The notes beneath the pieces are model-generated. The model was not told the DNA's origin. It made no database searches and saw nothing but the letters and a program-made list of their open reading frames with translations. Shown here in pieces: positions 2,620 through 41,297 of a DNA stretch of 64,000 nt. Position 1 is the first letter of the stretch, and each line of letters opens with the position of its first letter. A program made the position numbers and the translations under genes. Source of the stretch: a virus (lineage: Duplodnaviria; Heunggongvirae; Uroviricota; Caudoviricetes); IMG/VR virus record IMGVR_UViG_2563366840_000011, positions 1 through 64,000 of that record. The stretch is one strand, 5' to 3'.

Positions 2620-3210
2620 ATGTCTCGAATTTTTGCTTACTGTCGGATATCAACGCTGGATCAGACCATCGAAAATCAACGCCGGGAAATCGAAAGTGCA
2701 GGTTTTAAAATCAAACCTCAGCAAATAATCGAAGAACACATTAGCGGCTCAGCAGCAACCAGTGAGCGTCCTGGTTTTAACCGGTTGCTTGCTCGCCTGA
2801 AATGTGGTGATCAATTGATTGTGACAAAACTGGATCGCCTTGGTTGTAATGCAATGGATATCAGGAAAACAGTGGAACAACTGACCGAAACAGGTATCAG
2901 AGTGCATTGCTTAGCATTGGGGGGCATTGACCTGACCAGTCCAACAGGAAAAATGATGATGCACGTAATTTCAGCAGTCGCTGAATTTGAACGAGACCTT
3001 TTACTTGAACGCACTCATTCCGGGATAGTAAGAGCCCGCGGCGCAGGGAAACGTTTTGGTCGACCACCTGTGTTAAATGAAGAACAGAAACAGGTGGTAT
3101 TCGAACGAATTAAGTCAGGTGTAAGTATAAGTGCCATTGCCCGGGAATTCAAAACCTCGCGGCAAACCATTTTAAGAGCCAAAGCAAAACTTCAGACACC
3201 TGACATATAA
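2620..3210 (+). CDS. pin: Pin-type serine DNA invertase (Gin/Hin/Pin family)
   Basis: 196-aa ORF with N-terminal resolvase catalytic motif (YCRISTLDQ, catalytic Ser) and C-terminal HTH; adjacent to tfa/stf. Confidence 0.9.
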
Positions 3211-3307
3211 AAAATAATCTCGGTGTGAGATGCTTTACGTCTTCCAAGCCCCCTTCCTTGCCGTAAATGGAAAGATACATCTAATTATAGAATTTATATG
3301 TTTTACC

Positions 3308-3883
3308 CTACGGCAGTGCTGGCCATTCAATATCCTGTGCAGTTGACGTATCAACACGGTTCAGCAACACCCGATACTTTTTCCAGGCTTCCAGCAATGA
3401 GGTTTCTTCCTCCGTTGCGATTTCCAGATCTACAGCATCCTGAAGTGGTGCAATATGCTCACTGGCTACCTGCATCAGGCTGTTTTTTGTTTCTTCCGCC
3501 TCTCGGATCCGGAACAGTTTTTCTGCTTCTGCATCTTTCACCCAGGCTGTGCCGTTCCACTTCTGAAACTCCCCTTCCGGCGATAACCAGGTAACATTTT
3601 CCGGTAACGGACCGAGTTCAGAAATAAATAACGCGTCCCCTGACGCTACGTCATAAACCGTTTTACCCCGATGGTCTTCAACGAGATGCCACGATGCCTT
3701 ATCACTGTTGAAAACAGCCACAAAGCCAGCAGGAATATCTGGTGGTGCAATATCGGTACTGTTTGCTGGCAGACCTGTATGAGGCGGAATATATGCGTCA
3801 CCTTCACCAATAAATTCATTAGTTCCAGCCAGCAGATTATAAATTTTTATGGTCCGTGGTTGTTCACTCATTCTGAATGCCAT
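3308..3883 (-). CDS. tfa: Tail fiber assembly protein Tfa
   Basis: 191-aa ORF closely matching lambda/e14 Tfa; start codon overlaps stf stop (TAATG). Confidence 0.85.
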
Positions 3884-28069: not shown

Positions 28070-28340
28070 GATGTTACCGTAGTATGTGAGTATCCATCGA
28101 ATAGATACCAAGCAAAAAAGCTCCCGAAGGAGCCTTCATTTTCACTTTTTTAAATCCAACGACAGACGGCTGGCATTTAAGTATTGTGAAATATTATCAA
28201 ATGTAATCATCATTGATTTACAAAAGATACATTTTGCCCCGAAAGGATTCATGTCAGAAACATCAAAAGATGATGTTCTATACTGGGAACCATGACAACA
28301 CGGGCATCTAAAGTGAATATGGTTTGTAATATTGTCTACC

Positions 28341-28553
28341 TCAAAGCGCCACTACATGAACAGCGGCAGGACCTTTAGGTCCGTTCTCAATACCAAATTC
28401 AACTTCCTGATTCTCAGTTAATGTTTTGAAATCGTTGCTCTGAATTGCTGAGAAATGGACAAACACATCTTTGCTGCCATCTTTCGGCGTGATGAAACCA
28501 AAACCTTTTTCAGGGTTAAACCATTTCACTAAACCAGTCATTTTGTTAGACAT
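28341..28553 (-). CDS. cspI: Cold shock protein (CspA family)
   Basis: 70-aa ORF with RNP motifs KGFGFI and VFVHF; position as cspI in Qin. Confidence 0.85.
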
Positions 28554-28916
28554 AATTATTACCTTTTGAAGAAATTAGCCCTTGGGCAGAATGGTCCGAA
28601 AAAAAATATCAGAGAGAAAAACCAACAAGGAAATCTCAAGAGGTACAAATAATAAAATTATAACAATGACTGCTTCAGATAAATTTGTAACAAACCAGAA
28701 CACCATTAACGCATGATTAACCACCCATAGCAAGGATTACTTTTGTAAAGAAAAACACAGCAATGAAAGAATAGCTTTATTTATTAATAATAACGTGTCA
28801 TTCTGATTAAGACCTTTTATCTTACCCTTAAGATTTCAGGAATTTTGGCTCATGGAAGAGTCCTTTTTATTTAAATTTTACATTCCGCGATGTAAATGTT
28901 CCGATTTAATATTACC

Positions 28917-29940
<1,024 letters not shown>

Positions 29941-29944
<4 letters not shown>

Positions 29945-30252
29945 ATATATTTATGATGAGGACGCTCGTGCTTATTGGCAGGATTTTCAATCTTAAAGGA
30001 GTACTGATGCTGCAGATAAGACTCAACTTTTTCTGACAATTTTTCTGCTACTTCCAGGAAGACTTGCCGGACGCTCCTTCTGGCTGCTGCCTCATAAAAC
30101 TCCAGCGCAGCTCCTTCAACACGGTCCATGGCGACATCCAGGTCAAAAATTTCACCGTCAAAGCGTTCTTTGTCCTGTAAGGCTACAGTTACCGTAACTT
30201 TATTCTCAAAATTACGGACTCCTTTCACAACCAGTTCATAGTCTTGAGTCAT
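29941..30252 (-). CDS. ydfR: YdfR-like protein (DUF1327)
   Basis: 103-aa ORF between holin and endolysin as in Qin. Confidence 0.65.
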
Positions 30253-30256
30253 TGGA

Positions 30257-30472
30257 TTACTCTCCTCTCGCAGCCTTACGCCTGTCTTCTTTAATCTTGA
30301 AATAAAGATTTGTCAGATACGTCAGCAGGCCAAAAACCAGGCTACCCAGCACACCGATTGCAGCCCACTGTGACGGAGTTACTTTATCGAGTAACTGCAA
30401 TGCCCAGAAACCAGCATTACCCGCCGATGTGCCATAGGCAACACCTGTTGTTAACTTATCCATTGATTTCAT
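30257..30472 (-). CDS. essQ: Holin, S21-type pinholin (dual-start motif MKSMDK)
   Basis: Matches remembered P21 S sequence (…[11 protein letters not shown]…[20 protein letters not shown]); two TM segments. Confidence 0.8.
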
Positions 30473-30691
30473 ATCCTCACCCCGATGTACACGGATGGTG
30501 CAATATGTTTGAAAAGATCGGAGTCTACGGGGTAGTTTTGACAGCACACGTTGTTCTCAACGGCGCTAAAAAAACATACACATTAAAAATGTGGGTAATT
30601 ATTTTGAAAGAAAGTCATATATAAAATAATAATACGAGAAATGTTTTCATATTTAGTGTACTGTATACGGCCATTTATACAGGAAAAGCCT

Positions 30692-30862
30692 ATGTCAGAA
30701 CGTAAAAACTCAAAATCACGCCGTAATTATCTCGTTAAATGTTCCTGCCCAAACTGCACCCAAGAGTCAGAACACAGTTTTTCAAGAGTACAAAAAGGTG
30801 CCCTTTTGATCTGCCCTCATTGCAACAAAGTATTCCAGACAAATCTTAAAGCTGTAGCCTGA
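30692..30862 (+). CDS. Small zinc-ribbon protein (two CxxC pairs), hypothetical
   Basis: 56-aa ORF from ATG with AGGAAAAG SD; CPNC...CPHC motif; opposite strand to the lysis genes. Confidence 0.4.
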   Translation: MSERKNSKSRRNYLVKCSCPNCTQESEHSFSRVQKGALLICPHCNKVFQTNLKAVA

Positions 30863-30916
30863 TTGATTTTATTAGTAACAAGTATTTTTTATATTTTAAT
30901 AATATATTTAAAGCAG

Positions 30917-30943
30917 ATAATAAAAAACCCGCCTGAGCGGGTT
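30917..30943 (-). terminator. Rho-independent terminator downstream of cspB
   Basis: aacccgc-ctga-gcgggtt hairpin with T-rich tract on the minus strand. Confidence 0.5.
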
Positions 30944-31225
30944 TGAGATTGTGGTGCTTTTTGTGGGAGTCATCCACTTACGCACTTTGTTTTGCCATGC
31001 CAGCAGTTAGCTTCTGCTGTAAAACTATTCATGCAGCAAACCTGCACTTCACCACAATGGTTAGCATACTTTTCCTGATTAAGATTTTGCCAAATATGCT
31101 AGCCATTGTTTCATGTATTGGACCTCCTTACTTTTTATTAAAGAGATCCAATATTCACTACTCTGTCCGTATCTCTACTCAGGCATCAGCCTTCTTCGTT
31201 ATCGTATACAGACGAGCGATGAATT

Positions 31226-31441
31226 TTAATCAGTAATGATGACATTTGCTGCTGCAGGACCTTTAGCACCACTCTCTATAGAGAAGGTAACCTTTTGACC
31301 TTCAAATAAGGTTCGATAATTATCATTCTGAATCGCAGAAAAATGCACAAACACATCTTTACTACCATCAACAGGAGAAATAAAGCCGAAACCTTTATCA
31401 GCGTTAAACCATTTTACTAAACCAGTCATTTTATTTGACAT
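31226..31441 (-). CDS. cspB: Cold shock protein CspB
   Basis: 71-aa CspA-family ORF; position and sequence as Qin cspB. Confidence 0.85.
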
Positions 31442-31741
31442 TCTACATTCCTTAACTTGAGCCTTTCGGCATAAATGGTTTGCATAACAGAAACGACTTC
31501 GTACTTAATTGGAGAGACTCAAAGAAGGAATAAGTGAATAACACCTGAAATGAGAACTGCTTTAGTAAACTACTTCGTATATCGTCTGTTCTTCAAACCG
31601 ACGCAATCATTAACGCATAGTTGAACATATGAAGCAATGTTTATTTTAGACATCCAGCCATCTTCAACCCCATCAAAAAACTATAGCTTTCTTCAGGAAC
31701 GTGTGTATAGTGCGCCAAGTTATCAGTATTAAGGAATTTTT

Positions 31742-31954
31742 TTGTCCCGTAAAATGACAGGAATTGTCAAAACCTTTGACGGCAAAAGCGGCAAGGGTCT
31801 TATCACCCCATCCGATGGTCGTATCGATGTCCAGCTTCATGTTTCAGCGCTCAATCTCCGCGATGCAGAAGAAATTACCACCGGATTACGCGTGGAATTT
31901 TGCCGGATAAATGGTCTGCGTGGCCCTTCAGCTGCCAATGTTTACCTTTCATGA
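31742..31954 (+). CDS. cspF: Cold shock protein-like CspF
   Basis: 70-aa divergent CspA-family ORF, divergently oriented to cspB. Confidence 0.8.
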
Positions 31955-32246
31955 GCTATATTAAAGCTTTAATTTCAGGCCCCATCGGATCACACATGGA
32001 GAGTTTTTATGAATAACCCCGTCTGTCTTGATGACTGGTTGATTGGCTTTAAAAGCTTATGCTGTACTTTGGCCGTAATAGCTCTGCTAATAATATAATA
32101 AGCAGACTCATTGTGTTTAGGGACATTGTACTGGAAGAAAACATTTTAAACATCAGGCAAATAACCAAGTCACCAGCTAAATAATAAGTTAACAGACATG
32201 AGTCCCGGGATGAGATTCAACATTACCATTGCCCCATTTAAAGCAC

Positions 32247-32270
32247 AAAACCCGCTCATCAGCGGGTTTT
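32247..32270 (-). terminator. tR'-like terminator downstream of the late promoter
   Basis: aaaacccgc-tcatc-agcgggtttt hairpin about 45-70 nt downstream of the predicted -10. Confidence 0.5.
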
Positions 32271-32315
32271 CTACTTTTTCTTAACGTCGGGTATACAAAG
32301 CCCATCGTTGAAAAA

Positions 32316-32344
32316 ATTTTATCCATATTTTTTGAAAAATGCAA
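32316..32344 (-). promoter_or_regulatory. pR'-like late promoter (-35 TTGCAT, 17-bp spacer, -10 TAAAAT), presumed Q utilization region
   Basis: Near-consensus sigma70 hexamers on the minus strand immediately downstream of Q. Confidence 0.45.
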
Positions 32345-32375
32345 ACATCATGTCGCCATCTTCAGCAAAAATCAT

Positions 32376-33128
32376 TTATCTCGTCACCTTCCTCAATTGC
32401 GCTTCCGCGTATGCTTCTTCCTGCCAGCACTTTGTTACCAGTTTACCAATGACGTCCGCATACCCCTTATACCACTGATAATCGGTCAGGTCTGGTACCA
32501 GCTTCTGGACATGACGTCGTGCCAGCGTGGTCGGTAAACGACTAAACCGGTTTCCATTACAACGCCCACAAATCTTATATACCGGTACGCCATGAAACCG
32601 GGTTCTTTTTTCATCCAGAACAATCCCTTTACCCTTACACCCTCTGCACGCTGTGCTGGCTTCGCCCTTACCATGGCAATGCTGACATAGTTCCTTCACC
32701 CATTCTTCCTTGATTACAGATTCCCCGCGTCTGTAGTGTTTCACCACTTCGCGCAATACATTATAAAATCCCGTACCTGAACAATGCTCACAGCGAGCCT
32801 TACTTGCCGCAGACCTGGAGTAATCAGCAAAGGCAAAACTCACGAGGTAAGGAATAATCTGTAACCGGATTTCTTCACTCAATTTGTTCAATGTCGGGTT
32901 ATCCAGTGCCATCGCGTAATTTAGCAGGCCTTCAATCGCAAACTGAGGGTCCTGAACACCAACTTTTGCCAGAAATAAGGCCAACCCAAGTGGTGCTTTC
33001 GACTGCACCATCCCCTGCGCTGCCATTACATCCGTAATTGTTAAACAACCGGTGCCTGTCGCTGGAGCGTCATCGCTCAATTTTGGAGATTTTGGGGAGT
33101 AATATTTTGGTAAGGCTTCAAGGTTCAT
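32376..33128 (-). CDS. quuQ: Late gene antiterminator Q
   Basis: 250 aa from MNLEALPKYY; Cys-rich zinc-binding motifs; directly upstream of a pR'-like promoter. Confidence 0.8.
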   Translation of the reverse strand: MNLEALPKYYSPKSPKLSDDAPATGTGCLTITDVMAAQGMVQSKAPLGLALFLAKVGVQDPQFAIEGLLNYAMALDNPTLNKLSEEIRLQIIPYLVSFAFADYSRSAASKARCEHCSGTGFYNVLREVVKHYRRGESVIKEEWVKELCQHCHGKGEASTACRGCKGKGIVLDEKRTRFHGVPVYKICGRCNGNRFSRLPTTLARRHVQKLVPDLTDYQWYKGYADVIGKLVTKCWQEEAYAEAQLRKVTR

Positions 33129-33141
33129 GCTCGTTCTCCAC

Positions 33142-34191
33142 TTACGCCAGTACGCCAATTGCCAGCGCGCGATCGATAAAACGAAATATCAGCTCCAGTT
33201 GGGAGCCATACTTATCTTCAAATGCCACTGTATCCGTATGCAGCTCGTTGTGATGCTTTCTGCACAAAGGCAACACAAAGAGATCATGTGCTTTTGTTCC
33301 CATTCCGCCCTGCCCGTGACCAATCAGATGATGCGGATCGTCGGCTGGCATACCGCAGCAAGCACACGGCTGTGTCTTAACCCAACGTGTGTATTTCTCC
33401 TTAACCCAGCGGCGACGTTTAGGCAGCTTCATGAAAGATTCCGGAGACTCTGGATCAACGGTGATGCTTACCACCGTCTTTTCCTGTGGTGATTTTTGTT
33501 GCTGGTGGGCGTAAGGCAACGGTGCAAGATTTTTTGTGCGTTGTTTCAATATGCTGGTGGCGGTCTGCTCTCCCGGTACGATGTCGCTTTCGCGGTACAC
33601 CGAGCAGATTTTTTCCGCTGGTAATCCCAGCGAACGACGCGATACAGCCTCAGGTAGTGCATCCACCACCTGATTGCAGACCGCCCACCAGGATAATTCA
33701 GCCAAAGATAATTCCCGCTCCTGCGTACCGCTTATTGCGTGACGGATGACGTCAATCACCCATGCTGTCAGATTTTGTTGAGCAAGCAGCTCCAGTGATT
33801 CCGATGTCTGGTCACGCAGTTGGTTGTCGCAGTGCCAGCACAACACCATTGCGCCGGTACCATAACGGTGAATGACTGTTTCAGTGTGATGGTAATCGCC
33901 ATTAGGCCACTGGCAGGATGTAACATGACGTAATAGCCAGTCGGACAATGCGCCAACGCCGCCAGCAGCACGAATCACCCGTTCGTTACTAAAAAACGGC
34001 AGCAATGTTTTGTCTTCCGCCAGCGGCTGGCGAACGGCAGGAACGACTCCGGATGGCAGATTACGCATGCTTTTTGGTTCCGGTTCCACCAGCACTCGAG
34101 GATTATGAAATATCTGTATGGATTCACGGCCCGGCTTAAGGACCACCAGCCCAAGCTCAGGCACCAGAACAGGTCTAAGTAATACCCGCAC
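33142..34191 (-). CDS. ydfU: YdfU-like DUF968 protein with C-terminal HNH-like motif
   Basis: 349 aa from GTG at 34191 with GGAGG SD 5 nt upstream; C-terminal CxxC...HH...H HNH-like signature. Confidence 0.7.
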   Translation of the reverse strand: MRVLLRPVLVPELGLVVLKPGRESIQIFHNPRVLVEPEPKSMRNLPSGVVPAVRQPLAEDKTLLPFFSNERVIRAAGGVGALSDWLLRHVTSCQWPNGDYHHTETVIHRYGTGAMVLCWHCDNQLRDQTSESLELLAQQNLTAWVIDVIRHAISGTQERELSLAELSWWAVCNQVVDALPEAVSRRSLGLPAEKICSVYRESDIVPGEQTATSILKQRTKNLAPLPYAHQQQKSPQEKTVVSITVDPESPESFMKLPKRRRWVKEKYTRWVKTQPCACCGMPADDPHHLIGHGQGGMGTKAHDLFVLPLCRKHHNELHTDTVAFEDKYGSQLELIFRFIDRALAIGVLA

Positions 34192-34192
34192 G

Positions 34193-34471
34193 TTACCTCC
34201 AGATCCGTTGCTGGAAAGTGCGGGACGCACGTGGTGGGCGTTCGGAATAAGGCAGCCTGACAGAGATTATCCAGTGCCGATAGTCGAGACTGAGAGCTTT
34301 CTTAACCTCGAACCCGCGCCTGCGGTAAGAATGAATCAGCCATTCGGCCTGTTCTGCAGTGCATGGAGGGTGCTGGAACCATTCAGACTTGAATGCGTGA
34401 GAATACCGCCCGTGCGTGCAGGCAAGAACGGGCGAATTATCAGAATTGTAATATTTTGCGTTGCGTGCCAT
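34193..34471 (-). CDS. Hypothetical 92-aa protein, translationally coupled to ydfU
   Basis: ORF whose stop lies within the ydfU SD/start region; no confident family. Confidence 0.4.
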   Translation of the reverse strand: MARNAKYYNSDNSPVLACTHGRYSHAFKSEWFQHPPCTAEQAEWLIHSYRRRGFEVKKALSLDYRHWIISVRLPYSERPPRASRTFQQRIWR

Positions 34472-34537
34472 CGGTTTTCTCCGGTGGCACGGTGTTACTC
34501 AGCGGGAGTTCAGCCCCGCGCAAGATTGTAGATGAGT

Positions 34538-34789
34538 TTATTCTTCTGAAAAAGCAGAAAAGCCAGCTTTTATTCCGATCTCTTTCAATGCCTGTAATGA
34601 AGTGACAAACTCACCTTCGCGCAAGATAAATCCGTCCGTGACCCGAGCATCCACAAAATTAATTAACGCAGCCCCATTCTTTCGCAAACACATAATGCGG
34701 TAATGACTAACAAGATTTCCATTTTCAACGCACACAGCATAGAGGCCATCTTCACAAAAAATTTTACGCAGTTCTTCGATGTTCATCAT
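34538..34789 (-). CDS. rem: Rem-like small prophage protein (83 aa)
   Basis: 83-aa ORF in the Qin rem position between ydfU and hokD. Confidence 0.55.
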   Translation of the reverse strand: MMNIEELRKIFCEDGLYAVCVENGNLVSHYRIMCLRKNGAALINFVDARVTDGFILREGEFVTSLQALKEIGIKAGFSAFSEE

Positions 34790-35005
34790 CAGAATCCTTC
34801 CGGATAATTAGCTCTCCCCTTTAAGGGACCATCCCTCTTATCCCTGCGCGCTACTTAAGTATTTTTGATTCTATTCCGGCACCGTCCAGAACTTCAAACG
34901 CGTTGAAAATAAAAACAAAAACCCGCCGAAGCGGGTTAAGTGCGGGTGCGTTGAGGATGCCTGCCACATCAGAGGTGGCGAGGGATTTCTCCCCCGCCGG
35001 GTCTC

Positions 35006-35161
35006 TTACTCCTCAGGTTCGTAAGCTGTGAAGACAGCGACCTCCGTCTGGCCGGTTCGGATTCGTACCTCGCAGAGGTCTTTCCTCGTTACCAGTGCCG
35101 TCACTATGACGGTTAAACAGATGACGATCAGGGCGATTAACATCGCCTTTTGCTGCTTCAT
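35006..35161 (-). CDS. hokD: Hok-family type I toxin (HokD/RelF), 51 aa
   Basis: Hand translation MKQQKAMLIALIVICLTVIVTALVTRKDLCEVRIRTGQTEVAVFTAYEPEE; not in the ORF track (under 60 aa). Confidence 0.8.
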   Translation of the reverse strand: MKQQKAMLIALIVICLTVIVTALVTRKDLCEVRIRTGQTEVAVFTAYEPEE

Positions 35162-35232
35162 AGCCTGCTTCTCCTGTCAACGCAAAGCAGAAGTGTCACC
35201 TTCGGTGCGAAACAGAGATGTCATGCTTTGGT

Positions 35233-35520
35233 TCAGAGAATGCGTTTGACCGCCTCGCTATATACTTCCGAGCGTTCTCTTTTCCCAACAGAAATCACGA
35301 AAACGACAACTTTCTCGTCTATAACCTGGTATACAAGGCGATAGCCTGAAGACCGGAGCTTAATCTTGTAACAATCAGGCATACCACGGAGCTTGTTTGC
35401 TTCAATCCGGGGTGACTCAAGTACTTCAACCAGCTTCTTTTTCAACTGTTCACGTACCGTCGAGCCCAGCTTTCGCCATTCCTTTAGTGCCCGCTCGTCA
35501 AAATCCAGAAAATACGCCAT
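35233..35520 (-). CDS. relE: RelE mRNA interferase toxin
   Basis: 95-aa ORF matching RelE. Confidence 0.9.
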   Translation of the reverse strand: MAYFLDFDERALKEWRKLGSTVREQLKKKLVEVLESPRIEANKLRGMPDCYKIKLRSSGYRLVYQVIDEKVVVFVISVGKRERSEVYSEAVKRIL

Positions 35521-35759
35521 CAGAGTTCATCCAGCGTCACACGTACTGGCTTAGGATTACGAAGCCGTTCTTTCACTATCTCCACAAGTTCAGCATCTTC
35601 ATCACTCAGGAGTGTCTGTTTGAACGGCAAGCGTTCATTGTCAGCGATATACTCGAGCATGAGACGAAGCGCTTCAGAAGGAGTTACACCCATTTTTTCA
35701 AGCGCGGCGTAAGAACGCGCTTTAAGTTCATCGTCAATACGCAGGTTAATGCTACCCAT
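35520..35759 (-). CDS. relB: RelB antitoxin
   Basis: 79-aa ORF matching RelB; stop overlaps relE start. Confidence 0.9.
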   Translation of the reverse strand: MGSINLRIDDELKARSYAALEKMGVTPSEALRLMLEYIADNERLPFKQTLLSDEDAELVEIVKERLRNPKPVRVTLDEL

Positions 35760-35783
35760 GTCTTACACCTCTTGTAATTACAA

Positions 35784-36089
35784 ATGTCATTACAAGTATC
35801 GCACTACAACATGCTTAGGGCAAGTCACGAAGGAAGTCAGAAAGTAGTCGTAAGAACGGTGATCACTGTCCGCTTTGTGCCAGGAGCAGCCATTGCTAAG
35901 TCCATCCTGTATTGTGCAGGTCAGCTCGTTTTTAAAGAGTCCGGCCATCATCTTACTGGTACAGACACCATATACTTTGTGACGGTCAGGCTACATATGC
36001 ACAACTCAACTTATTCATCTATTTTTTGCTTTAGCATGTCAGTGTTGCTTTCTCGTCGGCGGGTGAGCGGTGACCTGACCTGTCGATAA
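35784..36089 (+). CDS. ydfV: YdfV-like hypothetical protein
   Basis: 101-aa ORF in the Qin ydfV position; weak sequence support. Confidence 0.35.
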   Translation: MSLQVSHYNMLRASHEGSQKVVVRTVITVRFVPGAAIAKSILYCAGQLVFKESGHHLTGTDTIYFVTVRLHMHNSTYSSIFCFSMSVLLSRRRVSGDLTCR

Positions 36090-36291
36090 AGGAACGTAAC
36101 ACGTTTTATGCAACACCCGCATGCGGCAGAAAATTATTGCCGAACGTTTACCCCTGTCAACAAGCTTTACTTTCTGAGGCGCGCCAGCCCGCGAGGAAAA
36201 CAATCTGAACATCAAACAATTAATGACACAAGAAATACGATTAAAGATTTTTTTGTGCATGCCGATAGTGCTTTTTTAAAAGGAGAAATCT

Positions 36292-36624
36292 ATGTCTGTC
36301 ACAATTCAGGGAAATACCTCAACCGTTATTTCAAACAACTCCGCCCCGGAAGGAACATCAGAAATAGCCAAAATCACAAGACAAATTCAGGTGCTGACTG
36401 AAAAGCTTGGGAAAATCTCATCGGAAGAGGGGATGACGACACAGCAGAAAAAAGAAATGGCTGCATTGGTACAGAAGCAAATTGAAAGCCTCTGGGCTCA
36501 ACTGGAGCAGTTGTTAAGGCAGCAGGCAGAGAAAAAGAATGAAGACGCGACAGTTCAGCCTGATAAAAAAGAAGAGAAAAAAGACGATACAAATACCGCT
36601 GGCACCATTGATATTTACGTCTAA
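36292..36624 (+). CDS. flxA: FlxA (FliA-regulated coiled-coil protein)
   Basis: 110-aa ORF matching FlxA; AGGAG SD. Confidence 0.85.
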   Translation: MSVTIQGNTSTVISNNSAPEGTSEIAKITRQIQVLTEKLGKISSEEGMTTQQKKEMAALVQKQIESLWAQLEQLLRQQAEKKNEDATVQPDKKEEKKDDTNTAGTIDIYV

Positions 36625-36638
36625 GTGACAGCCGTATT

Positions 36639-36662
36639 GTGGCCCTCATCGGGCCACTTTTC
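36639..36662 (+). terminator. Rho-independent terminator of flxA
   Basis: gtggccc-tcatc-gggccac hairpin followed by TTTTCG. Confidence 0.6.
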
Positions 36663-36999
36663 GCCATCAGCCTTTTCTTTAAAGACATATTATCTTTGTA
36701 TCATTTCTGATAGTTAACATTACAAGATATAAGTAATGGACGCACTCCCAATTAGTCTATTTAAATCGCCACGAGTTTAACTGACAACCCATGATCAATT
36801 ATGAATTGCAACTATTTCTGTAGTCACTTTTGTGGGGACAGTCCACAAAACTGCCAACTTCCGCTTCTTGCTCTTAGCGGACATTAGCATAGGCTATTTA
36901 CCATAACGCCTCATTACGCGCACCGCCCAGACTGACTCAGCGCGTTTCTGGCATATCCCCGGTAAAACAAGTAACAAACCACCCGAAAATGAACACCAG

Positions 37000-38450
37000 A
37001 AACGCGACTTAAGAATCTACCCTATGAATGGATATGCACTCAACCGAATCGATCTTGGTTTCAATCTTTTTTATCGGGATCAGGCTTCTTTTTAGGTAAC
37101 TTCGGGGGCTTAACTTGCTGATGACTTTGCGTTCGGCGCGTAAGCCAGGGATGGTCAGCTTTAGGTTTAACATAGTATTTTGAGCGTAAATCAATACGGG
37201 CATTATCCACTCGTTCATGGACACTCTTTTCATCATCCAGTGGTATAGGCTCCGGGCCATCAACATACTTTTCCCAGCCCAGCGCTTTCCCGTCATACAG
37301 AACGTTAATTTCACCGTCAAAGTTCTCGCATACAGTAACAACCGAATGCCTAAGTCGATATCCCCGGCCCTCACTGCGTACCTGAAACGCACTGCTTTTG
37401 TACTGGAAAGTGAGATTTTTAGACAGAACGCGCTTCGCCTGTAGGCTGAAGATATAACCCAGTTCCTCTTCAGAATGGTGCACATCAAGATGAGCATTAT
37501 CAGTAGTACGAGGCGACGTAGCGAACCGGTTGTTATAGGCTTCAATAAAGGTCGGCAACCATGCATTTGCTGTTTCAATATCACTGATATTCTGAAGCCG
37601 CATTTCTTTGACCAGCCTGTCCTGTAGTGTCTGATTGGCGCGCTCTACCCGCCCTTTTGCCTGCGGGCTGTTGGCATGGATTGGCTCGATGCCCAGTGTC
37701 TTTATCGCACGAGTGAACTGGGTCAGCTCACCTTCCCGCTCTGGGTTATTTACCCTGAATATACTGTGTCTATCAGAGTAGAGAGCGAGCGGTACGCCAT
37801 GATCATTAAGGTAACCCCGGAGGGTTTCCATGTAAGCCCGGGTTGTTTCAGCAGGCACAAAACGCAACGCCATCAACGCACTGGTGGCATCATCAATGAA
37901 AACGATCAGTGTACATCTGGGGCCTCGATTTTCAAACCAGTCATGAGGTGAGCCATCAATCTGGATCAGTTCACCGTAAGATGGTCGTCGCATGCGGCGT
38001 TGATATATACGGGCAATTTTACGACGGCGTTCACGCCATAACCCCTCTTCTATCATCCACTTTCTGAGAGTTTCAACGGATAAAGATAAACCGTGTATCT
38101 CGCGCAATTTTTCGCACGCAAACGTAGGTCCAAAATCAGCGTAACGGCCTTTGAGGAGTGAAATTACTGTTGCTCTGAATTCAGTAGAAAAGGAATTATT
38201 AGGACGCTTTCCACGTCGGTGGGAAACCAGACCAGAAGGCCCTTCATTTCTATACCGTTGCACCAGACGTTTAACCTGCCGAATAGAAATGCCAATGCGT
38301 GCCGCAGCTTGTTCCTGAATAATCTGAAGTCGATGGAGTTCCTTATGACTCATCGTAACAGTCTCTTTGATCATGAAAAATCCCCCAGAGAATTGTCTGG
38401 GGACATTTTAGAATGGTTCAAAGGGGACATTACAGCTTGGTGTTAACAAT
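37000..38450 (-). mobile_element. Insertion sequence carrying the 437-aa transposase; ends not resolved
   Basis: Single large transposase ORF between flxA terminator and an AT-rich small-ORF region; terminal inverted repeats could not be located by eye. Confidence 0.4.
37061..38374 (-). CDS. DDE transposase with N-terminal HTH and integrase-core (rve-like) domain; IS family not assigned (IS481/ISNCY-like guess)
   Basis: 437-aa ORF with HTH at N-terminus and D...D...E integrase-core pattern; basic Lys/Pro-rich C-terminus. Confidence 0.7.
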   Translation of the reverse strand: MIKETVTMSHKELHRLQIIQEQAAARIGISIRQVKRLVQRYRNEGPSGLVSHRRGKRPNNSFSTEFRATVISLLKGRYADFGPTFACEKLREIHGLSLSVETLRKWMIEEGLWRERRRKIARIYQRRMRRPSYGELIQIDGSPHDWFENRGPRCTLIVFIDDATSALMALRFVPAETTRAYMETLRGYLNDHGVPLALYSDRHSIFRVNNPEREGELTQFTRAIKTLGIEPIHANSPQAKGRVERANQTLQDRLVKEMRLQNISDIETANAWLPTFIEAYNNRFATSPRTTDNAHLDVHHSEEELGYIFSLQAKRVLSKNLTFQYKSSAFQVRSEGRGYRLRHSVVTVCENFDGEINVLYDGKALGWEKYVDGPEPIPLDDEKSVHERVDNARIDLRSKYYVKPKADHPWLTRRTQSHQQVKPPKLPKKKPDPDKKD

Positions 38451-38708
38451 AGCCTGCTTCTCCGTGCCTTTCGGCACGTAAGAGGCTAACCTACATGTGT
38501 CTAGCATGAAATTGGCCTCAGATTAATGTTAAGCGTCTTGCAGGACGCGTAATGTTAACTGGGGCTTTTCTCTATCTGCCGTTGGTGTCCATGCCCGAGG
38601 CAGATAGCCTCAAGCACCCGCAGTCATTCTACTTAACTAAGATTTCCCCGCAAACCGTTTTTGTCCAGCACAGTAAATATCCAACTAAACCAATGGAGTT
38701 CGCTGTAT

Positions 38709-38888
38709 TTACCGCCAGTATTCAATGCACATGACCGCCATGAACACCCCTAAAAAAAGGGCATTTATATATCCAAATATTAATATCAAAACATCAACTT
38801 TTTCCATATACCTTGCTGTGAAGATGATGGGCATACATGATGCGAACAACCAGAACGCAACAAACAAAAACTGCAATGCGTTTTTCAT
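38709..38888 (-). CDS. Small hydrophobic two-TM protein (59 aa), hypothetical
   Basis: ATG preceded by GGAGG SD; two hydrophobic helices; AT-rich. Confidence 0.4.
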   Translation of the reverse strand: MKNALQFLFVAFWLFASCMPIIFTARYMEKVDVLILIFGYINALFLGVFMAVMCIEYWR

Positions 38889-39139
38889 TATTCCTCCTAC
38901 AATCAATGTGCAATTACATTTAAACACACCTCAATTTGGCCGGACATATAAATATCTAAACCAGAAAAAATCACTTACATAGCGTTACAAACTCTTTAGT
39001 CTAAAGGTTCATCGTAAAACATTCCCCATACTTATCAGTCCGTTCCGCGCCAGGTAGCTCATTGCCTTATCTGGCAACCTGTAATCAGGTTTCCGCTTTT
39101 TCAGTTGGCTGGTCGTTTAACCGACATAGTTAATCCATT

Positions 39140-40193: not shown

Positions 40194-40697
40194 TTATTGA
40201 TAGTGTTTTATGTTCAGATAATGCCCGATGACTTTGTCATGCAGCTCCACCGATTTTGAGAACGACAGCGACTTCCGTCCCAGCCGTGCCAGGTGCTGCC
40301 TCAGATTCAGGTTATGCCGCTCAATTCGCTGCGTATATCGCTTGCTGATTACGTGCAGCCTTCCCTTCAGGCGGGATTCATACAGCGGCCAGCCATCCGT
40401 CATCCATATCACCACGTCAAAGGGTGACAGCAGGCTCATAAGACGCCCCAGCGTCGCCATAGTGCGTTCACCGAATATGTGCGCAACAACCGTCTTCCGG
40501 AGCCTGTCATACGCGTAAAACAGCCAGCGCTGGCGCGATTTAGCCCCGACATAGCCCCACTGTTCGTCCATTTCCGCGCAGACGATGACGTCACTGCCCG
40601 GCTGTATGCGCGAGGTTACCGACTGCGGCCTGAGTTTTTTAAATGGCGGAAAATCGTGTTGAGGCCAACGCCCATAATGCGGGCGGTTGCCCGGCAT
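40194..40697 (-). CDS. insB: IS1 InsB (expressed as InsAB' by frameshift)
   Basis: 167-aa ORF matching IS1 InsB. Confidence 0.9.
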
Positions 40698-40946: not shown

Positions 40947-41297
40947 CCTTTTTCAGTGAAAATCTCGCCAAGCGGTGTCTGGCTGTTATTAATCGCCCAG
41001 TCAGCCCCGCTCTCTTTCGCTTTTTCCAGTCGTTCATCAATGCGATCGGCAACAATCACATTTTTAACGTTATAGACGCCTTTTAATACCTGAACGATCG
41101 TCAGGCCGATTGGACCGGCACCATAAACCAGAACGGTATCATTTTCAGTCGGTTGACCATGTCCGGTTACGTTAGCCGCAATGGTAAAAGGTTCGATCAT
41201 TACCGCATATTGATCGGCCACTGCTTCAGGAATTTTCCACGCATTTTTTGCCGGAACCACGGCATATTCACTGAAACCACCGTCAGCTGTGGGGAGG
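40947..41297 (-). pseudogene. Internal fragment of a zinc-type medium-chain dehydrogenase gene (rspB-like by position), truncated at its 3' end by IS1 and at its 5' end by the Mu-like prophage
   Basis: Translation ...DGGFSEYAVVPAKNAWKIPEAVADQYAVMIEPFTIAANV...VLVYGAGPIGL... shows the MDR substrate-domain and Rossmann GxGxxG pattern; the frame reads straight into the IS1 terminus. Confidence 0.55.

What the first reader, a model, noticed from the sequence alone, without database searches (positions are those of the whole stretch)
35006..35759. Stacked toxin-antitoxin loci: relB-relE (type II) followed by hokD (type I)
RelB and RelE ORFs overlap at start/stop, and a 51-aa Hok-family toxin lies just downstream on the same strand. 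The only ORF in the track over hokD (35028..35249, plus) is antisense to it and is probably spurious, although a small antisense regulatory RNA may be encoded in this neighbourhood.
Basis: partly seen in the sequence, partly recalled or inferred. Interest (0 to 1): 0.35.

Follow-up and report, generated by a model that had tools for sequence, protein, structure and literature searches.

The report
relBE transposon inserted into hok/sok
The relB-relE-hokD gene trio is real and already famous from E. coli K-12, but here it can be seen how it arose: a 3.3-kb jumping element carrying relBE landed exactly between the hokD toxin gene and its own control region, and closely related copies have hit the same spot of other hok genes again and again.

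Summary
The three ORFs are present as described and match E. coli K-12 relB, relE and hokD (relF) exactly. The reading as two stacked, self-contained toxin-antitoxin loci is only half right. relBE is complete, including its published operator. hokD is only the 3' half of a hok/sok locus.

Homology to intact hokD loci stops 14 nt upstream of the hokD ATG, inside the sok -35 box, so no sok gene lies next to hokD. In this window, unlike K-12, the missing leader with the sok region survives 3.3 kb away (38448-38619).

The DNA in between (35175-38448) is a transposon:
- an ISNCY/IS1202-family transposase;
- 22/30 terminal inverted repeats starting with TGT;
- a perfect 15-bp target duplication;
- relBE, ydfV and flxA as cargo.

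Many E. coli genomes show the empty site. Near-identical elements sit at the same point of unrelated plasmid and chromosomal hok genes, each with its own 13-15-bp duplication. K-12's "relBEF operon" is a deleted remnant, and ydfW is the tail of the transposase gene.

The genes themselves are known. I found no published description of the vehicle or of its preference for hok loci.

The parts
35520..35759 (-). relB, RHH antitoxin and autorepressor (79 aa)
   Evidence: Pfam RelB 1e-32 and NCBIfam NF008412 at 133 bits. Identical to PDB 4FXE_A. Annotated relB in K-12.
35233..35520 (-). relE, ribosome-dependent mRNA interferase (95 aa). Its ATG shares one base with the relB stop codon.
   Evidence: TIGR02385 RelE_StbE and Pfam ParE_toxin. 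Identical over 95/95 residues to PDB 4V7K chain y.
35006..35161 (-). hokD (relF), 51-aa Hok-family membrane toxin. It is the third cistron of the relBEF transcript.
   Evidence: Pfam HOK_GEF 1e-23. Annotated hokD, WP_000813254.1. Co-transcription with relBE from the relB promoter was shown by northern blots in PMC3598666.
35772..35795 (-). relO operator: TTGTAATGACAT + TTGTAATTACAA, four [A/T]TGT[A/C]A hexads
   Evidence: Inverted and direct repeats found. Exact match to the half-sites published in PMC2812701.
35795..35823 (-). Inferred relBE promoter: -35 TTGCCC (35823-35818), 17-nt spacer, -10 GATACT (35800-35795), start near 35788
   Evidence: Read from the sequence. Consistent with the published operator span of -10 to +17 overlapping the -10 box. 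It falls below the threshold of the consensus scan. This is an inference.
35175..38448 (-). 3,274-bp IS1202-family (ISEsa1-like) transposon carrying relE, relB, ydfV, flxA and the transposase gene
   Evidence: Bounded by the duplication and the inverted repeats. Absent from empty sites in other E. coli. The whole unit is 99.5-99.8% identical on plasmids of Salmonella, Enterobacter and E. coli.
35175..35204 (+). Terminal inverted repeat on the relE side (TGTCAACGCAAAGCAGAAGTGTCACCTTCG). It makes up most of the relE-hokD spacer.
   Evidence: 22/30 match to the other end. This is the best match in the whole 64-kb window on either strand, and the next best is 19. A second TGTC motif lies about 24 nt further in at both ends.
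38419..38448 (-). Terminal inverted repeat on the transposase side (TGTTAACACCAAGCTGTAATGTCCCCTTTG)
   Evidence: The subterminal direct repeats GGGGACATT at 38399-38417 and 38423-38441 were found (family D7).
35160..35174 (.). Target-site duplication, copy 1 (plus strand ATAGCCTGCTTCTCC). On the hok strand it reads GGAGAAGCAGGCTAT: the hokD Shine-Dalgarno through the 'AT' of the ATG.
   Evidence: Perfect 15-bp direct repeat, family D10. It is single-copy in empty sites.
38449..38463 (.). Target-site duplication, copy 2
37061..38374 (-). Transposase gene (437 aa). It has an in-frame 27-bp deletion near codon 19 relative to the 446-aa plasmid copies. Its last 49 codons are K-12's 'ydfW'.
   Evidence: NCBIfam transpos_ISNCY_2 at 456 bits against a cutoff of 250, plus Pfam HTH and rve_3. 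PGAP names it 'IS1202-like element ISEsa1 family transposase'. The deletion was mapped.
35784..36089 (+). ydfV, cargo gene of unknown function
   Evidence: Annotated in K-12. Travels with the element on plasmids. No Pfam match.
36292..36624 (+). flxA, cargo gene
   Evidence: Pfam FlxA 2e-14. Present in the 3.3-kb plasmid copies.
38448..38619 (-). Displaced hokD leader, including tac at 38619-38608, the mok start and the Sok target. The sok gene lies on its opposite strand.
   Evidence: Rfam RF01794 at 104 bits against a gathering score of 59, full length 1-157. 98% identical to the leader of the intact locus L002.
38464..38492 (+). Ancestral sok promoter position: -35 GTGCCT (TTGCCT in empty sites), 17-nt spacer, -10 TAACCT
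   Evidence: Alignment of the antisense strands. The promoter assignment rests on position relative to the hok leader and on my recollection of the R1 sok promoter. It was not tested.
38430..38507 (-). Truncated mok' frame: 25 codons, stopping inside the transposon end. The intact MokD in L002 is 70 aa and in frame with HokD.
34920..35005 (-). hokD 3' UTR with the fbi-like box CCTCAACGCACCC (34956-34944) and the intrinsic terminator (34937-34920)
   Evidence: Terminator. The fbi box and its complement, tac, were located. The stretch is 99-100% identical to intact loci.
35028..35249 (+). 73-aa antisense ORF, judged spurious
   Evidence: No Pfam or NCBIfam match. Not annotated. It spans the transposon/target junction.

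Best explanation
The locus is the classical relB-relE-hokD (relBEF) arrangement. It exists because a 3.27-kb IS1202-family (ISEsa1-like) transposon, with relBE as cargo next to one end, inserted into the hok/sok locus of a Qin-type lambdoid prophage.

The insertion point lies between the hok leader and the hok Shine-Dalgarno. It duplicated 15 bp, running from the Shine-Dalgarno to the first two bases of the ATG.

Consequences:
1. Shown by sequence: hokD has lost its own promoter, the tac/ucb elements, the mok start, the Sok target and the adjacent sok gene.
2. Shown experimentally for the identical K-12 sequence: hokD is transcribed as the third cistron from the RelB/RelE-autoregulated relB promoter. 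There is no terminator in the 71-nt spacer, which consists of the transposon's terminal repeat plus the duplicated target.
3. Shown by sequence: in this window the severed leader with the sok region survives 3.3 kb upstream. It now reads into the transposon, and mok is truncated to 25 codons.
4. Shown by comparison: K-12 is a deletion derivative that lost the 5' three quarters of the transposase gene, the other transposon end and the leader/sok region.
5. Shown by comparison of many loci: related relBE-carrying copies have inserted independently at the homologous point of other hok genes, so the conserved '...AAGGCAA|GGAG...' junction is a preferred target.
6. Inferred only: the functional outcome is that a type I addiction module is disabled or rewired and replaced by a type II one.
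For: Identity of the genes.

Breakpoint: identity to the intact loci L002/L003 is 99-100% up to -14 from the ATG (window 35175) and 15-33% beyond that.

No sok next to hokD: no RF01794 match in 34300-36400 at E<=10. The positive controls score 107-122 bits on intact loci. The antisense-strand alignment shows the cut falls in the sok -35 box.

Transposon features:
- a perfect 15-bp direct repeat;
- a 22/30 terminal inverted repeat, unique in the window;
- an ISNCY_2 transposase at 456 bits;
- L002 743-2776 matches window 33142-35175, and L002 2761-3406 matches window 38449-39095.

Empty sites: two-piece matches spanning 132 bp in 24 of 40 evenly sampled rows. The full element is present in 760 genomes. 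K-12-type strains stop at window 37245.

Mobility: the whole unit is 99.5-99.8% identical on IncI and IncF plasmids of other genera.

Independent hok insertions have their own duplications of 13-15 bp. The element is 91-100% identical while the flanks are 55-72% identical.

The clade makes 15-16-bp duplications as a plain 1.45-kb IS in Hahella and Rhabdochlamydiaceae.

Co-transcription of relBEF from the relB promoter: PMC3598666.

Published view that hokD lacks canonical components because of rearrangement: PMC12214031. Published view that relBE integrated into a longer ancestral hokD ORF: PMC6379469.
Against: Transposition of this element has not been demonstrated experimentally.

The copy in the window has a 27-bp in-frame deletion in the transposase's N-terminal DNA-binding region, and RefSeq annotates the near-identical gene as a pseudogene. 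This copy may therefore be immobile.

A few relBE-carrying copies sit in non-hok sites (L013, L021), and one hok insertion is in the opposite orientation (L024). The specificity is strong but not absolute.

The review PMC10132070 lists ISEsa1 as 1,609 bp with no detectable duplication. I could not reconcile that boundary with this element: no inner end-like sequence was found, the best being 12/22.

The consequences for HokD translation are not measured. The spacer does not fold more stably than shuffled sequence (z = +0.68).
Confidence: 0.88

Rival explanations
1. Two autonomous toxin-antitoxin loci happen to be adjacent: relBE (type II) and a complete hokD type I locus with its own cis-encoded Sok-like antisense RNA near the hokD 5' end.
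For: A Hok-family ORF with a good Shine-Dalgarno and a terminator is present. Two weak promoter-like sites (8/12) lie on the antisense strand inside hokD, at 35114 and 35137.
Against: There is no sok/hok-leader match near hokD at E<=10, whereas intact loci score above 100 bits. Homology to intact loci ends at -14, inside the sok -35 box. The Sok target and the mok start are absent from the relBEF transcript. The two weak sites are equally present inside the hok coding sequence of intact loci, which have their real sok promoter elsewhere. K-12 RefSeq annotates no RNA there.
Confidence: 0.03
2. The relBE-hokD junction arose by illegitimate or microhomology-mediated recombination (a generic 'genomic rearrangement'). 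It was not transposition, and the neighbouring transposase is a bystander.
For: The literature speaks only of 'genomic rearrangements' or 'integration of relBE'. The window's transposase carries a deletion.
Against: The 15-bp repeat flanks exactly the segment that begins and ends with matching TGT... inverted repeats. The same ends bound elements of 3.3-7.3 kb at other sites, each with its own 13-16-bp duplication. Cargo-less relatives with the same ends make 15-16-bp duplications. Precise empty sites exist.
Confidence: 0.03
3. There was one ancient insertion into an ancestral hok gene. The element then spread to other hok paralogs by vertical divergence or by homologous recombination between hok loci, so there is no target preference.
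For: Several loci share identical flanks (L011, L012, L015, L016; L014 and L026; the window and L020). That reflects spread of one event by plasmids or descent.
Against: The element is 91-100% identical, while the hok-side and leader-side flanks are only 55-72% identical. Each hok paralog has a duplication made of its own sequence, with lengths of 13, 14 or 15 bp. L025 has a second, related element inserted in tandem into the regenerated target. The non-hok sites share the GGCA(A/T) motif just before the duplication.
Confidence: 0.05

Closest known systems
E. coli K-12 relBEF operon (relB-relE-hokD/relF, Qin prophage)
   Same: 100% nucleotide identity over 34850-35900, and 99.9% over 28850-37245. 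Same proteins, same relO operator, same 71-nt relE-hokD spacer and same terminator.
   Different: K-12 ends at window 37245. It keeps only the last 49 codons of the transposase gene (annotated ydfW). It lacks the other transposon end, the second copy of the duplication and the hok leader/sok region. All of these are still present in this window.
Canonical hok/sok type I loci (plasmid R1 parB; chromosomal hokC/sokC; intact prophage hokD loci such as L002/L003)
   Same: The Hok coding sequence, Shine-Dalgarno, 3' UTR with the fbi box and the terminator are 99-100% identical to intact prophage hokD loci.
   Different: In canonical loci, the promoter, tac, ucb, mok start, Sok target and the antisense sok gene are contiguous with hok on one mRNA. 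Here they lie 3.3 kb away on a different transcript, and hokD is driven by the relB promoter.
IS1202-family insertion sequences (ISNCY 'IS1202 group': ISAjo2/ISAba32, ISTde1 and IS1202 subgroups; ISEsa1)
   Same: A transposase of about 440 aa with N-terminal HTH and a DDE core. Imperfect terminal repeats of 24-30 bp starting with 5'-TGT. A second conserved box about 20 nt in from each end. Long 15-17-bp duplications, as described for the ISTde1 subgroup. Some members carry passenger genes, and some are target-specific: ISAjo2/ISAba32 target dif/pdif sites.
   Different: The target here is the hok leader/Shine-Dalgarno junction, not a Xer site. The cargo always includes relBE abutting one end. 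ISEsa1 itself is listed as 1,609 bp with no duplication and no known target, whereas these ISEsa1-family elements show clear 13-16-bp duplications once the outer end is used.
Ramisetty & Santhosh 2016 proposal that relBE integrated into hokD (seen only as cited in PMC6379469)
   Same: The same conclusion: an ancestral ORF of about 70 codons (the mok-hok frame) was cut to 51 codons by arrival of a horizontally acquired relBE. The intact 70-aa frame was confirmed in L002.
   Different: As quoted, no vehicle, ends, duplication, empty site or target preference is given. The companion paper describes mobile toxin-antitoxin units as 'promoter/operator and TA ORFs' without a mechanism. I could not read the 2016 paper itself.

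Membership tests
RelBE type II toxin-antitoxin system | RHH antitoxin RelB encoded first, with its stop codon overlapping the start of the toxin gene | tested here: met
   Pfam RelB 1e-32 and NCBIfam equivalog at 133 bits against a cutoff of 96. One-base overlap at 35520.
RelBE type II toxin-antitoxin system | RelE-fold ribosome-dependent mRNA interferase with the catalytic residues | tested here: met
   95/95 identity to RelE in ribosome-bound structure 4V7K and in the RelBE complex 4FXE. K52, K54, R61, R81 and Y87 are present in the translation. The residue list is from my own knowledge.
RelBE type II toxin-antitoxin system | Autoregulatory operator relO with four [A/T]TGT[A/C]A hexads overlapping the promoter | tested here: met
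   TTGTAATGACATTTGTAATTACAA lies at 35795-35772. It is identical to the half-sites in PMC2812701.
RelBE type II toxin-antitoxin system | Toxin activity neutralised by the antitoxin | not testable with these tools
   Established experimentally for the identical K-12 proteins (PMC2812701, PMC3507626).
[quoted passage not shown] | Hok/Gef-family small membrane toxin | tested here: met
   Pfam HOK_GEF 1e-23 over residues 6-47. Identical to K-12 HokD. The HokD coding sequence is toxic on overexpression (bioRxiv 10.1101/2025.08.07.668861).
[quoted passage not shown] | Cis-encoded Sok antisense RNA overlapping the leader of the same hok mRNA | tested here: not met
   No RF01794 match in 34300-36400 at E<=10. 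The controls score 107-122 bits. The sok-bearing leader lies at 38448-38619, beyond the transposon.
[quoted passage not shown] | An overlapping mok frame whose translation is coupled to that of hok | tested here: not met
   The mok ATG is at 38507, and the frame stops after 25 codons inside the transposon end. The intact 70-aa Mok-Hok frame is seen in L002.
[quoted passage not shown] | 5' tac and 3' fbi fold-back elements on one transcript | tested here: not met
   fbi is at 34956-34944, but its complement tac is at 38619-38608, on the other side of the insertion.
IS1202 family (ISNCY) transposable element | Large DDE transposase with N-terminal HTH domains | tested here: met
   NCBIfam transpos_ISNCY_2 at 456 bits against a cutoff of 250. 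Pfam HTH_32, HTH_29, HTH_28 and rve_3. The DDE residues were not checked individually.
IS1202 family (ISNCY) transposable element | Imperfect terminal inverted repeats beginning 5'-TGT, with a second conserved box about 20 nt in | tested here: met
   22/30 match between the ends, unique in the window. TGTC(C/A)CC lies at offsets of about 20 and 44 at both ends.
IS1202 family (ISNCY) transposable element | Target-site duplication of a characteristic length, flanking independent copies | tested here: met
   13-16 bp at 11 distinct sites for the cargo-carrying form. 15-16 bp at 8 sites for the plain-IS relatives. This matches the 15-17 bp reported for the ISTde1 subgroup.
IS1202 family (ISNCY) transposable element | Demonstrated transposition | not testable with these tools
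   Only comparative evidence is available: empty sites, multiple sites and multiple replicons.
ISEsa1 as defined in ISfinder (1,609 bp) | Same element boundaries as the ISfinder entry | tested here: inconclusive
   PGAP names the transposase 'ISEsa1 family'. No end-like sequence exists about 1.6 kb from the transposase-side end: the best is 12/22.

The most novel reading that the evidence does not exclude
The enterobacterial relBE module travels on a dedicated IS1202-family transposon whose preferred landing site is the conserved leader/Shine-Dalgarno junction of hok/sok loci, which is also the sok -35 box.

Each insertion uncouples a type I toxin from its RNA antitoxin and from mok. It places the toxin behind the relBE promoter, and places the transposase gene behind the hok promoter and leader. 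One addiction module thereby captures or replaces another on plasmids and prophages.

The textbook K-12 'relBEF operon' would be a decayed example of this. The 'no duplication, no target' status of the ISEsa1 group would come from not recognising the outer, cargo-side end.
Probability: 0.6. Interest if true: 0.7.

Novelty: new variant of a known kind. Interest (0 to 1): 0.5.

Why it matters
relBE of K-12 is the reference type II toxin-antitoxin system, and hok/sok is the reference type I system. Their adjacency in K-12 has been treated as an operon curiosity or an unspecified rearrangement.

Showing that the junction is a transposon end plus a target duplication has several consequences:

1. 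It explains why hokD has no Sok and no mok.
2. It explains the K-12 orphan genes ydfW (transposase tail), ydfV and flxA (cargo).
3. It gives a concrete mechanism for horizontal spread of relBE among plasmids and prophages.
4. It identifies a second kind of sequence-specific target for IS1202-family elements, besides dif/pdif sites.
5. It suggests a testable conflict between addiction modules, in which one mobile toxin-antitoxin system disables another.

There is also a practical warning. relBE deletion strains and 'hokD' phenotypes in K-12 concern a chimeric transcription unit.

Tried and rejected
**Consensus promoter scan.** The sigma-70 scan around hokD found nothing on the antisense strand. 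It also misses the real hok and sok promoters of the intact locus L002, so I gave its silence no weight. I relied on homology instead.

**Relaxed promoter scoring** (>=7/12). This gave two weak sites inside the hokD coding sequence. They are equally present in intact loci, so I rejected them as evidence for a hokD-specific antisense RNA.

**Folding the relE-hokD spacer**. It is no more stable than shuffled sequence (z = +0.68), so I make no claim of structural control of the hokD Shine-Dalgarno.

**Weak Rfam matches** to isrK and rsmX on the hokD 3' UTR. They are far below the gathering scores and are explained by two hairpins plus a terminator. I rejected them as family members.

**An inner transposon end** near 36840, which would match ISfinder's 1,609-bp ISEsa1. 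None was found (best 12/22).

**My initial assumption that the window is K-12.** Wrong outside about 28850-37245.

**Ramisetty & Santhosh 2016.** I tried to read it, but it is not held.

**The repeat finder did not report the terminal inverted repeat.** The repeat contains no exact 7-mer seed. I scored it directly instead.
Full report
**1. The observation**

| Gene | Coordinates | Length |
|---|---|---|
| relB | 35520-35759 | 79 aa |
| relE | 35233-35520 | 95 aa |
| hokD | 35006-35161 | 51 aa |

relB's TGA and relE's ATG share base 35520. hokD begins 71 nt after the relE stop codon and re-translates without a frameshift or stop.

Pfam and NCBIfam place the three proteins in RelB, RelE/StbE-ParE and Hok/Gef. 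RelE and RelB are identical to the chains in PDB 4V7K and 4FXE.

The stretch 34850-35900 is 100% identical to E. coli K-12 MG1655. There it is annotated relB, relE, hokD and ydfV, inside the Qin prophage between rem and flxA.

The published relO operator half-sites TTGTAATGACAT and TTGTAATTACAA (PMC2812701) are present verbatim at 35795-35772.

The 73-aa plus-strand ORF over hokD has no family match and is not annotated.

**2. Is hokD a type I locus with its own antisense RNA?**

No.

- An Rfam scan of 34300-36400 at E<=10 finds no sok/hok-leader match.
- The same model (RF01794) scores 107-122 bits immediately 5' of hok in three intact loci fetched as controls. These are two prophage hokD copies without relBE (L002, L003) and a hokC/mokC locus (L004).
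- BLAST hits of near-identical hokD copies in other strains all stop at window 35175.
- An ungapped walk shows 99-100% identity from the terminator up to -14 from the ATG, and 15-33% beyond that.
- On the antisense strand, the intact loci read ...CTTCTCCT|TGCCT-17 nt-TAACCT, which is the position of the sok promoter. The window reads ...CTTCTCCT|GTCAAC....

So the break lies inside the sok -35 hexamer. The sok -10, the Sok transcript, the mok start and the Sok target are all missing next to hokD.

The consensus promoter scan is silent. It also misses the true promoters of intact loci, so it adds nothing.

The literature agrees. relF/hokD is co-transcribed with relBE as one relBEF mRNA, and that mRNA disappears when the relB promoter is deleted (PMC3598666). 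Among K-12's non-hokB hok loci, those not inactivated by IS elements (hokA, hokC, hokE) are attributed to 'genomic rearrangements' that leave them lacking canonical components (PMC12214031, citing Pedersen & Gerdes 1999).

**3. The unexpected part**

A whole-window Rfam scan at curated thresholds found a full-length sok/hok-leader match at 38448-38619 on the minus strand (104 bits). K-12's DicF RNA was not found.

The window is K-12-like only over about 28850-37245. Against the intact locus L002, the window is split:

| L002 coordinates | Window coordinates | Identity |
|---|---|---|
| 743-2776 | 33142-35175 | 94% |
| 2761-3406 | 38449-39095 | 98% |

About 15 bp of L002 are therefore present twice, on either side of a 3.27-kb segment. 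The repeat finder confirms a perfect 15-bp direct repeat, ATAGCCTGCTTCTCC, at 35160-35174 and 38449-38463.

Reading inward from the two ends of the segment:
- TGTTAACACCAAGCTGTAATGTCCCCTTTG
- TGTCAACGCAAAGCAGAAGTGTCACCTTCG

These match at 22 of 30 positions. That is the single best match to that 30-mer anywhere in the 64-kb window on either strand, and the next best is 19. Both ends carry a second TGTC(C/A)CC box about 24 nt further in.

The segment encodes a 437-aa ORF (37061-38374). It is an ISNCY-family transposase by NCBIfam (456 bits against a cutoff of 250), and PGAP names it 'IS1202-like element ISEsa1 family transposase'. The segment also carries flxA, ydfV, relB and relE.

The relE-hokD 'spacer' is thus the transposon's terminal repeat (35175-35232) followed by the duplicated target. 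The duplicated target is the hok Shine-Dalgarno through the first two bases of the ATG.

**4. Empty sites, full sites and K-12**

I searched 35100-38520 against 5,426 complete E. coli genomes.

- **Full sites:** 760 genomes hold at least 80% of the query, meaning the whole element at this site.
- **K-12-type strains:** these match only as far as window 37245.
- **Empty sites:** in 24 of 40 rows sampled evenly down the ranking, the two flanks lie together in a 132-bp span (76 + 72 - 15).

L002 and L003 show such an empty site at sequence level. They have one copy of the 15-mer, and a continuous 70-codon Mok-Hok frame.

K-12 is therefore a deletion derivative. Its 'ydfW' is the last 49 codons of the transposase gene (window 37061-37210). 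ydfV and flxA are transposon cargo. The other transposon end and the leader/sok region are gone.

In the window's displaced leader:
- mok starts at 38507 and stops after 25 codons, inside the transposon end;
- tac (38619-38608) is now separated from its 3' partner fbi (34956-34944);
- the sok -35 reads GTGCCT instead of TTGCCT.

The window's transposase has an in-frame 27-bp deletion in its N-terminal region relative to the 446-aa plasmid copies. Otherwise the element differs from a Salmonella IncI plasmid copy at only 5 of 3,274 positions.

**5. Mobility and target choice**

The complete unit occurs at 99.5-99.8% identity on plasmids of Salmonella, several Enterobacter species and E. coli.

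In three plasmids of different incompatibility groups, it again lies immediately upstream of a Hok-family gene in the same orientation. Each copy has its own duplication built from the local hok sequence:

| Locus | Duplication | Length |
|---|---|---|
| L007 | ATCATAGCCCCTCCA | 15 bp |
| L008 | TGGCCTTCTTCTCC | 14 bp |
| L009 | TGGCCTTCTTCTC | 13 bp |

A scan of one genome per species with the transposase returned 79 loci.

- **Distant relatives** (Hahella, Chromatiales, Rhabdochlamydiaceae and others) are plain elements of about 1.45 kb with the same TGTTA...GTTGACA ends. They make 15-16-bp duplications at unrelated sites.
- **Enterobacterial copies** (transposase 89-98% identical) have the same ends spaced 3.3-7.3 kb apart. 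relB-relE (95-100% identical) always abuts one end, and the middle cargo varies. In the 6.09-kb form it includes an IS110-family element, a cytochrome b561 and a CDF efflux gene.

Among the relBE-carrying copies:
- At least ten distinct insertions lie at the homologous leader|Shine-Dalgarno point of different hok genes. These are the window (with L020), L007, L008, L009, L011-type, L014-type, L017, L019, L028 and L042. L010 may be an eleventh.
- One copy is at the same point in the opposite orientation (L024).
- In one case (L025), a second related element has inserted in tandem into the regenerated target.
- Two clear cases are in non-hok sites (L013, L021), as is one relBE-less relative (L041). 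All three have GGCA(A/T) immediately before a 15-16-bp duplication, as the hok sites do.

The element is 91-100% identical across these loci, while the hok-side and leader-side flanks are only 55-72% identical. The hok insertions are therefore independent events rather than one ancient insertion.

**6. How it most likely works**

*Shown.* relBE is a complete autoregulated type II module. hokD lacks every cis element of hok/sok control except its Shine-Dalgarno, its 3' UTR and its terminator. No terminator lies between relE and hokD. In K-12, hokD is part of the relBEF mRNA made from the relB promoter.

*Inferred.*
- HokD synthesis now depends on RelB/RelE-controlled transcription and on its own Shine-Dalgarno, without Sok or mok. 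HokD is toxic when overexpressed, yet strains carry the arrangement stably, so its translation is presumably weak.
- The usual orientation puts the transposase gene downstream of the hok promoter and leader. That could couple transposase expression to that promoter.
- By carrying relBE, the element replaces the addiction function it disrupts.

None of these three points was testable here.

**7. Comparison with what is known, and novelty**

The genes and the relBEF operon are textbook. That relBE integrated into a longer ancestral hokD ORF has already been proposed (Ramisetty & Santhosh 2016, as cited in PMC6379469). I could not read that paper.

IS1202-family elements are known to have TGT ends, long duplications (15-17 bp in the ISTde1 subgroup), occasional passenger genes and, in one subgroup, specific targeting of dif/pdif sites. 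ISEsa1 itself is listed as 1,609 bp with no duplication and no target.

In the searchable library I found no paper that connects relBE, hok and an IS1202/ISNCY element.

I therefore rate the locus itself as known. The vehicle and its preference for hok loci I rate as a new variant of a known kind of element. The caveat is that the literature I could search is incomplete.

**8. Verdict**

- Observation: confirmed.
- Interpretation: partly supported.
- The suggested local sok-like RNA is refuted. The real sok region lies 3.3 kb away, uncoupled from hokD.
- Interest is moderate. It is low for the finding as written, and raised by the transposon origin and the recurrent targeting of hok loci.

Noticed in passing
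window 35021-35023 (minus strand), hokD codon 47: The Tyr47 codon TAC sits in a TACG motif (cagcTTACGAAcctg). This is the published TadA A-to-I editing site that recodes Tyr to Cys in hokC, hokD and hokE. hokD is reported as about 6% edited (PMC5630033, PMC12214031).
   Followed up: partly
window 34916-34997 (minus strand): The hokD 3' UTR gives a weak match to the Salmonella Hfq-binding sRNA family isrK (25 bits against a gathering score of 50). The same match appears in the intact hokD loci L002 and L003. It is probably just the shared shape of two hairpins plus a terminator.
   Followed up: partly
window about 38318, inside the transposase ORF 37061-38374: There is an in-frame 27-bp deletion (9 codons, N-terminal DNA-binding region) relative to the 446-aa plasmid copies. 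RefSeq annotates the near-identical chromosomal gene as a pseudogene plus ydfW. The prophage copy may be immobile.
   Followed up: partly
window 38464: The base just outside the duplication on the leader side is G (sok -35 GTGCCT) in the filled sites of the window and Shigella L020. It is T (TTGCCT) in the empty sites L002 and L003. This is either a polymorphism linked to the insertion or a repair scar, and it would weaken the sok promoter.
   Followed up: no
window 38709-38927 (minus strand): A 72-aa hydrophobic ORF lies directly upstream of the hok promoter. It is conserved in the intact loci L002 and L003, and has no Pfam or NCBIfam match.
   Followed up: no
L025 7527-9300 (Leclercia sp. 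EMC7): A second, related element (transposase 78% identical, with a RelE-like gene at 58% identity on the opposite strand) is inserted in tandem right after the first element, following a 10-bp repeat of the target. This suggests the regenerated target can be hit again.
   Followed up: partly
L011 7724-11172, and the equivalent stretch in L012 and L014-L017: The 6.09-kb variants carry an IS110-family transposase, a cytochrome b561-family protein and a CDF cation-efflux protein between the transposase gene and relBE. The middle cargo is variable, while relBE at the end is constant.
   Followed up: partly
window 28314-28699 and 31210-31602 (minus strand); 3342-3540 (minus strand): There are two cspA-type thermoregulator 5' UTRs at the prophage cold-shock genes (cspI and cspB by K-12 position) and an IS009 RNA match, all at curated Rfam thresholds. 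K-12's DicF RNA is absent from this window.
   Followed up: no
window 40194-40697 and 40947-41287: An IS1 InsB-like ORF is followed by DNA identical to K-12's rspB. The prophage's far side appears to be truncated by an IS1-associated deletion that differs from K-12's structure. The window also differs from K-12 over about 4080-25724.
   Followed up: no
window 36708-36727 compared with 35770-35789: A 20-nt sequence between flxA and the transposase gene is 75% complementary to the relO operator region (TGATAGTTAACATTACAAGA). This may be chance (pair I5).
   Followed up: no
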